Shown in pieces: positions 39,668 to 40,025 of a stretch of 64,000 nt of DNA. Source of the DNA: Escherichia coli (lineage in GTDB: Bacteria > Pseudomonadota > Gammaproteobacteria > Enterobacterales > Enterobacteriaceae). The number at the start of each line of letters is the position of its first letter. Within the stretch, counting starts at the first letter, position 1. The stretch lies in the NCBI RefSeq assembly GCF_045037415.1, contig NZ_CP173438.1; one strand, written 5' to 3'. The notes beneath the pieces were generated by a model. It searched no databases, was not told the origin of the DNA, and saw only the letters and a program-made list of their open reading frames with translations. The position numbers and the translations under genes were made by a program.

Positions 39668-40025
39668 GTCGACAGGGAGTCAGACAACGAAGTGAACATC
39701 AGGATGATGACACTTCTGAAGGACACACCAGGATGGTGTTTCAGGGAAAGGCTTCTGGATGAAGCGAAGAGGATGACGCAGGACGCGTTAAAGGACACCT
39801 CCAGGATGGAGAATGAGAACCGGTCAGGATGATTCGGTGGGTCAGGAAGGCCAGGGACACTTCAGGATGAAGTATCACATCGGGGTGGTGTGAGCAGGAA
39901 GCAATAGTTCAGGATGAACGATTGGCCGCAAGGCCAGAGGAAAAGTTGTCAAGGATGAGCAGGGAGCAACAAAAGTAGCTGGAATGCTGCGAAACGAACC
40001 GGGAGCACTGTGAATACAGTGCTCC
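39668..40025 (+). ncRNA. csrB: CsrB regulatory RNA (CsrA-sequestering sRNA)
   Basis: About 360 nt with many repeated CAGGATG/AGGA motifs (GAGTCAGACAACGAAGTGAACATCAGGATGATGACACTTCTG...), ending in GGGAGCACTGTGAATACAGTGCTCCC hairpin plus T-run. The 5' end is approximate. Confidence 0.92.

What the first reader, a model, noticed from the sequence alone, without database searches (positions are those of the whole stretch)
39668..40025. CsrB sRNA present and intact
Seen: a non-coding stretch densely packed with CAGGATG/AGGA motifs and a strong terminal hairpin, between syd and yqcC. The ORF track shows a spurious 62-aa minus-strand ORF here. This is the CsrA-sequestering RNA; it is conserved and not novel, but worth flagging because ORF-based annotation misses it.
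Basis: partly seen in the sequence, partly recalled or inferred. Interest (0 to 1): 0.2.

Follow-up and report, generated by a model that had tools for sequence, protein, structure and literature searches.

The report
Intact CsrB regulatory RNA gene
This stretch is the well-known E. coli CsrB small RNA, a non-coding RNA that soaks up the global regulator protein CsrA; it is complete and ordinary, and is only notable because routine gene annotation leaves it unlabelled.

Summary
Window 39668-40036 (+) is the csrB gene of Escherichia coli.

- **Family match:** it matches Rfam CsrB (RF00018) end to end at 382.9 bits against a threshold of 71.
- **Identity to K-12:** it differs from the curated K-12 csrB (b4408, 369 nt) at two bases, and both changes preserve motif and structure.
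- **Location:** it lies between syd and yqcC, as in K-12 and at least 100 other enterobacterial species.
- **Motifs:** it has 22 sense-strand GGA motifs (about 5 expected, 2 on the antisense strand). They are predicted to be mostly unpaired.
- **Structure:** the 12 consensus hairpins show compensatory changes across 53 divergent homologues.
- **Flanking elements:** a strong terminator (40001-40026 plus T7) closes the gene. The experimentally defined 18-nt UvrY site lies at exactly -183/-182 (39477-39494). The RNase E entry site and the two protective GGA sites are identical to K-12.
- **ORF:** the 62-aa antisense ORF exists but is not conserved outside Escherichia and shows no coding periodicity.
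- **Annotation:** RefSeq/PGAP records do leave csrB unannotated.
- **Correction:** the gene ends at 40036, not 40025.

Nothing here is novel. One small side observation: the window's promoter allele degrades an IHF-like site that K-12 has. This allele occurs in 915 of 5,426 complete E. coli genomes.

The parts
39668..40036 (+). csrB gene (369-nt CsrB sRNA), from the 5' end to the end of the terminator U tract as annotated in K-12
   Evidence: Rfam RF00018 full-length match 39677-40036, 382.9 bits. Base-for-base alignment to K-12 b4408 with 2 substitutions, at 39719 and 40007. Predicted fold z-score -4.3.
39676..39983 (+). Array of 21 GGA motifs outside the terminator, which are the candidate CsrA binding sites. 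GGA starts are at 39676, 39702, 39721, 39731, 39745, 39757, 39771, 39781, 39793, 39804, 39808, 39827, 39845, 39855, 39865, 39897, 39912, 39939, 39953, 39963 and 39981. The 22nd (40002) lies in the terminator stem.
   Evidence: Counts and positions. Mean predicted probability of being unpaired is 0.81 for GGA bases against 0.35 for other bases, and 9 GGA sit in hairpin loops of the minimum-energy fold. The published count for E. coli CsrB is also 22 GGA (PMC5027483). GGA columns vary half as much as other csrB columns across 113 sequences.
39963..39983 (+). GGA sites 20 (39963-39965, +296) and 21 (39981-39983, +314). In K-12, CsrA bound at these two sites shields the RNase E entry site.
   Evidence: Sequence identical to K-12. 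The role is taken from PMC5027483. Site 21 is kept in 113 of 113 homologues. Site 20 lies inside my search pattern, so its conservation is by construction.
39990..40000 (+). Single-stranded segment just upstream of the terminator that holds the RNase E 'necessary cleavage site'. A327 corresponds to 39994 and A331 to 39998.
   Evidence: Both positions are A in the window and the segment is identical to K-12. The cleavage positions come from PMC5027483.
40001..40033 (+). Intrinsic terminator: 11-bp stem and 4-nt loop (40001-40026), then T7 (40027-40033)
   Evidence: Terminator scan. Energy -19.9 kcal/mol against -19.5 for the K-12 version. Helix 12 is 99% paired across 53 homologues, with 2 pairs showing compensatory changes.
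39477..39494 (.). 18-nt palindrome TGTGAGAGATCTCTTACA, the UvrY~P binding site, centred at -183/-182 relative to +1 = 39668
   Evidence: Exact and unique in the window, with 0 matches expected by chance. Detected independently as an inverted repeat. Same sequence and same position as the footprinted K-12 site (PMC4682653). A TGTRAGN6CTYACA box is present upstream of csrB in 94 of 109 species loci, mostly at the same distance.
39500..39508 (+). Extra half-site TGTAGGAGA, 5 bp downstream of the palindrome
   Evidence: Read directly from the sequence. Described at this spacing for E. coli and Salmonella csrB in PMC4682653.
39563..39578 (.). IHF-like site at -105 to -90. K-12 has two overlapping perfect matches to WATCAANNNNTTR here, and the window has one core mismatch in each.
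   Evidence: The paper places its putative IHF site between -142 and -56 but its sequence is only in a figure that is not held, so identity with this site is inferred.
39633..39661 (+). Inferred core promoter: -35 TTGTAA (39633-39638), 17-bp spacer, -10 GATTCT (39656-39661)
   Evidence: This is an inference. TTGT of the -35 element, and the A at -11 and T at -7, are each kept in at least 90% of 113 homologues. The hexamers are too weak for the consensus scan, which found no promoter. That fits an activator-dependent promoter.
39610..39798 (-). 62-aa GTG ORF antisense to the csrB 5' part. It is judged not to be a gene.
   Evidence: Listed. No NCBIfam family. Not annotated in K-12 or the identical RefSeq record. 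Open in 2 of 15, 6 of 52 and 1 of 40 homologues in falling identity bands. Variability by codon position is 0.20, 0.17 and 0.21.

Best explanation
Window 39668-40036 (+) is the csrB gene of an Escherichia coli chromosome. It encodes the 369-nt non-coding RNA CsrB.

How it works, as established in K-12 and inferred here from near-identity:
- The RNA folds into a string of short hairpins and single-stranded stretches that display about 21 accessible GGA motifs, typically CAGGA(U/A/C)G.
- Each motif is a binding site for one RNA-binding face of the CsrA dimer. One CsrB molecule therefore holds many CsrA dimers and keeps them away from lower-affinity mRNA leaders, which relieves CsrA-mediated control of translation and mRNA stability.
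[quoted passage not shown] UvrY binds the 18-nt palindrome at -183/-182 and is helped by IHF bending of the DNA between that site and a weak core promoter.
- Transcription ends at the strong intrinsic terminator.
[quoted passage not shown] CsrA bound at GGA sites 20 and 21 blocks that cleavage, and CsrD overcomes the block.

Shown here: identity, family membership, conserved structure, GGA enrichment and predicted exposure, and the presence and exact placement of the regulatory elements.

Inferred here: that the RNA is made, binds CsrA and is degraded in the same way in this strain.
For: Family and identity. Rfam CsrB match over the whole model, 382.9 bits against 71, with no non-standard pairs. 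367 of 369 bases identical to curated K-12 csrB.

The two differences preserve function-relevant features. At 39719, A replaces C next to a GGA, and A is the Rfam consensus base. At 40007, A replaces G, turning a G.U pair in the terminator into A-U. A-U is the form in 52 of 53 homologues.

Distribution and synteny. csrB is present in 5425 of 5426 complete E. coli genomes. It lies between syd and yqcC in at least 100 of 120 species loci.

Motifs. 22 sense GGA against 4.8 expected and 2 antisense. The count is held at a median of 22 (range 16-30) down to 60% sequence identity, while the antisense count stays near 2. GGA bases are predicted unpaired with probability 0.81 against 0.35 for the rest.

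Structure. The Rfam consensus structure on 53 independent homologues gives 95.3% of cells paired, against 35-50% with partners slid. 20 pairs have changes on both sides, and 0 of 500 shuffles reach the observed values.

Regulation. The UvrY palindrome is exact and at the published position and is conserved across genera. The RNase E site and protective GGA sites are identical to K-12.

Literature for the mechanism: PMC4682653 and PMC5027483.
Against: Nothing found argues against it. There are four limits.
- No expression or binding data exist for this strain.
- csrA, uvrY, barA and csrD are not known to lie in this window, and I did not look for them.
- The consensus promoter scan finds no sigma-70 site. 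This is expected for an activator-dependent promoter but leaves the -10/-35 assignment inferred.
- The window's upstream allele weakens an IHF-like site that is perfect in K-12, so expression level could differ from K-12.
Confidence: 0.97

Rival explanations
1. The region is a protein-coding gene: the 62-aa minus-strand ORF (39610-39798) or another overlapping ORF (46 aa on the + strand, 45 aa and 71 aa on the - strand) is the real product, and the GGA density is a by-product of codon content.
For: The ORFs exist. The start codon of the 62-aa ORF is kept in most homologues.
Against: No NCBIfam family for the 62-aa and 71-aa ORFs. Neither is annotated in K-12 or in the 100% identical RefSeq record.

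Outside Escherichia the 62-aa frame stays open for at least 80% of its length in only 9 of 107 homologues. The median distance from the aligned start to the first stop is 6-18 codons. The 46-aa and 45-aa ORFs lose their start codons or frames in the same way.

No excess of third-position change in any frame. The longest ORF per homologue ranges from 19 to 121 aa on either strand with no pattern.

Paired-column covariation is a constraint at the RNA level, not the protein level.
Confidence: 0.01
2. It is csrB but a functionally weakened allele: the two internal substitutions or the altered upstream region reduce CsrA binding or expression compared with K-12.
For: 39719 changes CAGGAC to AAGGAC at GGA site 3. 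Three upstream substitutions break both IHF-consensus matches at -105 to -90. IHF loss lowers CsrB about 10-fold in K-12 (PMC4682653).
Against: A at 39719 is the Rfam consensus base, and the GGA itself is kept. The terminator change strengthens the stem and matches 52 of 53 homologues.

The csrB sequence is 100% identical in multiple independent isolates. The exact 56-nt promoter allele is in 915 of 5426 complete genomes, so it is a common natural variant rather than a lesion.

Only 19 of 111 species loci have a perfect IHF-consensus match in the equivalent interval, so a perfect match is not required for the family. IHF tolerates degenerate sites (established knowledge). Whether this is the site the authors marked is unconfirmed.
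Confidence: 0.03
3. It is a different member of the Csr/Rsm RNA clan (such as CsrC), or a chance GGA-rich intergenic stretch, rather than CsrB proper.
For: Clan CL00106 families share the repeated GGA hairpin design (one search lists the clan).
Against: cmscan keeps only the best clan member, and that is CsrB with all 356 model positions matched. 99.5% identity to K-12 csrB at the syntenic site. Chance is excluded by the motif statistics and by covariation.
Confidence: 0.005

Closest known systems
CsrB of Escherichia coli K-12 MG1655 (b4408, NC_000913.3 2924156-2924524, complement)
   Same: Same gene. 369 nt with 367 bases identical, the same neighbours (queF, syd, csrB, yqcC, truC, yqcA), the same 22 GGA, the same UvrY palindrome at -183/-182, and the same RNase E entry site and terminator.
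   Different: A for C at +52. A for G at +340, which turns a terminator G.U pair into A-U. Six substitutions in the 210-nt upstream region, three of them in the IHF-like site at -105 to -90.
CsrB/RsmB family, Rfam RF00018 (Enterobacterales)
   Same: Full-length match at 382.9 bits with all 12 consensus helices. The helices are supported by compensatory changes in 53 homologues gathered here.
   Different: Nothing beyond ordinary sequence variation. Some relatives differ in copy number: Enterobacillus tribolii has three tandem copies.
CsrC of E. coli (second CsrA-sequestering sRNA, same Rfam clan CL00106)
   Same: Same mode of action (multiple GGA sites that titrate CsrA), the same UvrY activation from a distant upstream inverted repeat, and the same CsrD/RNase E turnover (PMC4682653 and PMC5027483).
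   Different: CsrC is a different locus and sequence with fewer sites. Its upstream repeat is less symmetric and its expression does not need IHF. The window element scores as CsrB, not CsrC.
RsmZ/RsmY/RsmX of Pseudomonas (Gac/Rsm system)
   Same: Same principle: GacA (the UvrY orthologue) activates sRNAs whose GGA loops sequester RsmA/RsmE (PMC5027483 introduction and discussion).
   Different: They are much shorter RNAs from different families. Pseudomonads have no CsrD orthologue, and the bound protein protects the RNA from decay. Not tested here.

Membership tests
CsrB/RsmB RNA family (Rfam RF00018) | Covariance-model score at or above the curated gathering score, over the full model | tested here: met
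   382.9 bits against 71, E 2.2e-111, model positions 1-356 of 356, no truncation and no non-standard pairs flagged.
CsrB/RsmB RNA family (Rfam RF00018) | Many GGA motifs, typically CAGGA(U/A/C)G, on the transcribed strand only, exposed in hairpin loops or single-stranded linkers | tested here: met
   22 GGA and 9 CAGGA[ACT]G on the + strand against 2 and 0 on the - strand, with 4.8 and 0.12 expected. Predicted probability unpaired 0.81 against 0.35. The count is conserved across 113 sequences.
CsrB/RsmB RNA family (Rfam RF00018) | Conserved series of short hairpins supported by compensatory base changes | tested here: met
   54 pairs in 12 helices, 95.3% of cells paired. 20 pairs have changes on both sides. 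0 of 500 shuffles reach the observed values. Slid controls give 35-50% paired. Caveats: this is a MAFFT alignment, and the structure was taken from Rfam rather than derived independently.
CsrB/RsmB RNA family (Rfam RF00018) | Rho-independent terminator at the 3' end | tested here: met
   11-bp stem at 40001-40026 followed by T7, -19.9 kcal/mol.
CsrB/RsmB RNA family (Rfam RF00018) | Non-coding: no conserved open reading frame | tested here: met
   The window ORFs are not preserved in other genera and show no codon periodicity. No family hits.
E. coli csrB orthologue | Syntenic position between syd and yqcC | tested here: met
   The same arrangement holds in at least 100 of 120 species loci.
E. 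coli csrB orthologue | BarA-UvrY control through the 18-nt inverted repeat far upstream of the promoter | tested here: met
   The sequence element TGTGAGAGATCTCTTACA is exact at 39477-39494, centred at -183/-182, with the extra half-site 5 bp downstream. Actual UvrY binding and activation in this strain cannot be tested with these tools.
E. coli csrB orthologue | CsrD- and RNase E-dependent turnover determinants: the cleavage site upstream of the terminator, and GGA sites 20 and 21 | tested here: met
   Sequence from +226 to +339 is identical to K-12. A327 and A331 correspond to 39994 and 39998. This shows presence of the sequence only, not decay kinetics.
E. coli csrB orthologue | Binds multiple CsrA dimers and antagonises CsrA in vivo | not testable with these tools
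   Known for the K-12 RNA (PMC5027483, PMC4682653). Inferred here from 99.5% identity.

The most novel reading that the evidence does not exclude
The most novel reading that the evidence leaves open concerns the promoter, not the RNA. The window's csrB upstream allele carries a mismatch in each of the two overlapping IHF-consensus matches that K-12 has at -105 to -90. That could change how strongly csrB transcription depends on IHF, and so shift the CsrB/CsrA set point in the lineages that carry it. The exact 56-nt allele is found in 915 of 5426 complete E. coli genomes. This would be natural variation in the wiring of a global regulator. It rests on an unconfirmed assumption that this is the functional IHF site.
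Probability: 0.1. Interest if true: 0.25.

Novelty: already known. Interest (0 to 1): 0.07.

Why it matters
It matters only as bookkeeping. CsrB is a central regulator: it sets the free CsrA level, which influences carbon storage, biofilm, motility and virulence. Yet the standard RefSeq/PGAP annotation of thousands of E. coli genomes carries no feature for it, while ORF callers offer spurious reading frames on it. Flagging it prevents a false 'hypothetical protein' call and records that this strain has an intact Csr antagonist with its regulatory sites. No open biological question is advanced by this.

Tried and rejected
- **Whole-window AGGA count:** 349 against 355 expected. It is uninformative because it averages over 64 kb. 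I replaced it with a local, strand-specific count.
- **Consensus sigma-70 scan:** no promoter found. I instead inferred the weak -35/-10 pair from cross-genus conservation. This remains an inference.
- **NCBIfam on yqcC:** no family. The name rests on RefSeq and K-12 annotation of the identical or near-identical gene.
- **Coding reading of the overlapping ORFs:** considered and rejected. The 71-aa minus ORF (39875-40090) was not tested across species because its start lies outside my extracts. It has no family hit and is unannotated.
- **IHF site:** I could not confirm from the text of PMC4682653 which bases the authors marked, because the site is shown only in a figure.
- **Searches not run:** Nothing about the finding called for them.
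- **A caveat on conservation figures:** conservation of GGA sites at +286 and +296 in my homologue set is by construction, because they lie inside the search pattern used.

Full report
**Observation**

The sequence at 39668-40036 is a 369-nt stretch with no long ORF, rich in G and A (122 G, 114 A, 67 T, 66 C).
- On the + strand it holds 22 GGA, 14 AGGA, 9 CAGGA[ACT]G and 6 CAGGATG.
- The rest of the window predicts 4.8, 1.0, 0.12 and 0.03 for that length. The - strand has 2, 0, 0 and 0.
- No other 369-nt stretch of the window has more than 6 AGGA on either strand. Shuffles of the region's own bases give 3.8 +/- 1.9 AGGA.
- A whole-window AGGA count showed no enrichment. It averages over 64 kb and says nothing about local density.
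- The 3' end is an 11-bp, 7 G-C hairpin (40001-40026) followed by T7, at -19.9 kcal/mol.
- The stretch lies between syd (38912-39457; NCBIfam SecY-interacting protein, E 1.7e-85) and yqcC (40079-40408; named so in RefSeq and K-12). queF lies upstream and truC downstream.

The only correction is that the gene ends at 40036, not 40025.

**Identity**

- Rfam's CsrB model (RF00018) matches 39677-40036 on the + strand over all 356 model positions, at 382.9 bits against a gathering score of 71 (E 2e-111). No non-standard base pair is flagged in any of the 12 consensus helices.
- The curated K-12 MG1655 record annotates csrB (b4408, 369 nt) at the syntenic place. Aligned base for base it corresponds to window 39668-40036, with two substitutions.
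- The first is A for C at 39719 (+52), next to a GGA that is kept. A is the Rfam consensus base there.
- The second is A for G at 40007 (+340). It turns a G.U pair of the terminator stem into A-U, which is the form found in 52 of 53 homologues from other species.
- csrB is found in 5425 of 5426 complete E. coli genomes, at 99% identity or more in 5176 of them, and several isolates are 100% identical to the window.

**Independent support from other genera**

- One DNA-pattern scan of one-genome-per-species contigs, using a conserved 24-nt csrB segment, returned at least 120 loci. They come from Citrobacter, Salmonella, Enterobacter, Klebsiella, Kosakonia, Pantoea, Erwinia, Hafnia, Edwardsiella and others.
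- In at least 100 of them the hit lies between syd and yqcC homologues. Most of the rest are cut by the locus end.
- Across 113 sequences, down to 60% identity with the window, the sense-strand GGA count stays at a median of 22 (range 16-30). The antisense count stays near 2.
- GGA columns vary half as much as the other csrB columns (0.12 against 0.26). Two of the sites lie inside my search pattern, so their conservation is by construction.
- I projected the Rfam consensus structure onto a MAFFT alignment of 53 sequences that are less than 95% identical to one another. 95.3% of cells form standard pairs, against 35-50% when the partners are slid by 1-3 columns.
- 20 of 54 pairs show changes on both sides, and none of 500 shuffles reaches the observed values on any measure.
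- The single-sequence fold is also more stable than shuffles (z = -4.3). It leaves GGA bases unpaired with probability 0.81, against 0.35 for other bases.

**Not coding**

- The 62-aa and 71-aa minus-strand ORFs have no NCBIfam family. Neither is annotated in K-12 or in the 100% identical RefSeq record.
- Outside Escherichia the 62-aa frame remains open for at least 80% of its length in 2 of 15, 6 of 52 and 1 of 40 homologues, in falling identity bands. The 46-aa plus-strand and 45-aa minus-strand ORFs fare no better.
- Substitutions show no third-position excess in any of these frames.
- The longest ORF per homologue ranges from 19 to 121 aa with no pattern.

**Regulatory surroundings**

- The 210 nt between syd and csrB contain the palindrome TGTGAGAGATCTCTTACA at 39477-39494. 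It is unique in the window, with no match expected by chance.
- With +1 at 39668 its centre falls at -183/-182. PMC4682653 reports exactly this sequence, centred at -183/-182, as the DNase I-footprinted and ChIP-exo-mapped binding site of phosphorylated UvrY at E. coli csrB. It also reports an extra TGTAGGAGA 5 bp downstream, which the window has at 39500-39508.
- A TGTRAGN6CTYACA box is present upstream of csrB in 94 of 109 species loci, mostly at the same distance. Practically every such box in about 1 Mb of fetched DNA is one of these.
- The consensus promoter scan finds nothing. Cross-genus conservation picks out TTGT at 39633-39636, and an A at -11 and a T at -7.
- From these I infer a weak -35 TTGTAA, a 17-bp spacer and a -10 GATTCT, as expected for an activator-dependent promoter. 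This assignment is inference.

**Turnover elements**

PMC5027483 shows the following for K-12:
- CsrB has 22 GGA.
- RNase E must cut just upstream of the terminator (A327 and A331) before decay can proceed.
- CsrA bound at GGA sites 20 and 21 blocks that cut.
- CsrD overcomes the block.

In the window these are 39994 and 39998 (both A) and GGA at 39963 and 39981. The whole segment is identical to K-12.

**Mechanism**

*Established for K-12, inferred here from 99.5% identity and intact elements.* BarA-UvrY, aided by IHF, activates csrB transcription. The RNA displays about 21 accessible GGA sites and binds many CsrA dimers. This frees mRNAs from CsrA control. RNase E with CsrD removes the RNA.

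*Shown here.* Identity, family membership, structure conservation, motif enrichment and predicted exposure, and the placement of the control elements.

*Not shown here.* Expression, CsrA binding and decay in this strain.

**Annotation point**

Every RefSeq (PGAP) record listed has no feature under csrB. Only the curated K-12 record has one.

**One small difference worth recording**

- Three of the six upstream substitutions relative to K-12 fall at -105 to -90.
- There K-12 has two overlapping perfect matches to the IHF consensus WATCAANNNNTTR. The window has one core mismatch in each.
- The interval fits where PMC4682653 places its putative IHF site, between -142 and -56. The site's sequence is only in a figure, so the identification is unconfirmed.
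- The exact 56-nt window allele occurs in 915 of 5426 complete E. coli genomes. Only 19 of 111 species loci have a perfect consensus match in the equivalent interval.
- It is therefore a common natural variant and probably harmless.

**Verdict**

Interest is low. The finding's value is as an annotation note.

Noticed in passing
window 39563-39578: The window's csrB promoter allele has one core mismatch in each of the two overlapping IHF-consensus matches that K-12 carries at -105 to -90. The exact 56-nt allele is in 915 of 5426 complete E. coli genomes. Whether this is the functional IHF site is unconfirmed.
   Followed up: partly
window 21241-21446 (-): Full-length GcvB sRNA (Rfam RF00022, 199 bits against a gathering score of 42).
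   Followed up: no
window 16624-16917 (-): Three identical tRNA genes 110 nt apart, each scoring 61.4 bits. They have a CAU anticodon loop and a mismatched first acceptor pair (C1 x A72), the hallmark of bacterial initiator tRNA. From my own knowledge these are probably metZWV.
   Followed up: no
window 39875-40090 (-): A 71-aa ATG ORF antisense to the 3' part of csrB that runs into the yqcC start. It has no NCBIfam hit and is unannotated in K-12 and RefSeq. It was not tested across species.
   Followed up: partly
L003 3863-5440 (E. coli MARGA_3, NZ_CM170101.1): An IS3-family transposase gene (locus 3935-5112) is inserted inside csrB about 92-94 nt from its 5' end. This clinical isolate therefore has a disrupted csrB.
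   Followed up: partly
L077 7700-9299 (-) (Enterobacillus tribolii DSM 103736): Three full-length CsrB copies in tandem, about 610 nt apart, between syd and yqcC. Each matches Rfam CsrB at 232-239 bits. This is a local triplication of the sponge RNA.
   Followed up: partly
E. coli genome collection: One of 5426 complete E. coli genomes has no csrB match at all. One csrB copy lies on a record typed as a plasmid. Neither record was identified.
   Followed up: no
L021 1305-2454 and L079 2851-4485 (Pluralibacter): yqcC lies 1.1-1.6 kb downstream of csrB instead of about 120 nt, so something is inserted between them. It was not examined.
   Followed up: no
RefSeq records such as L002 (E. coli SK1144): PGAP-annotated RefSeq genomes carry no feature for csrB even where the DNA is 100% identical to the window. 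Only the curated K-12 record does.
   Followed up: yes
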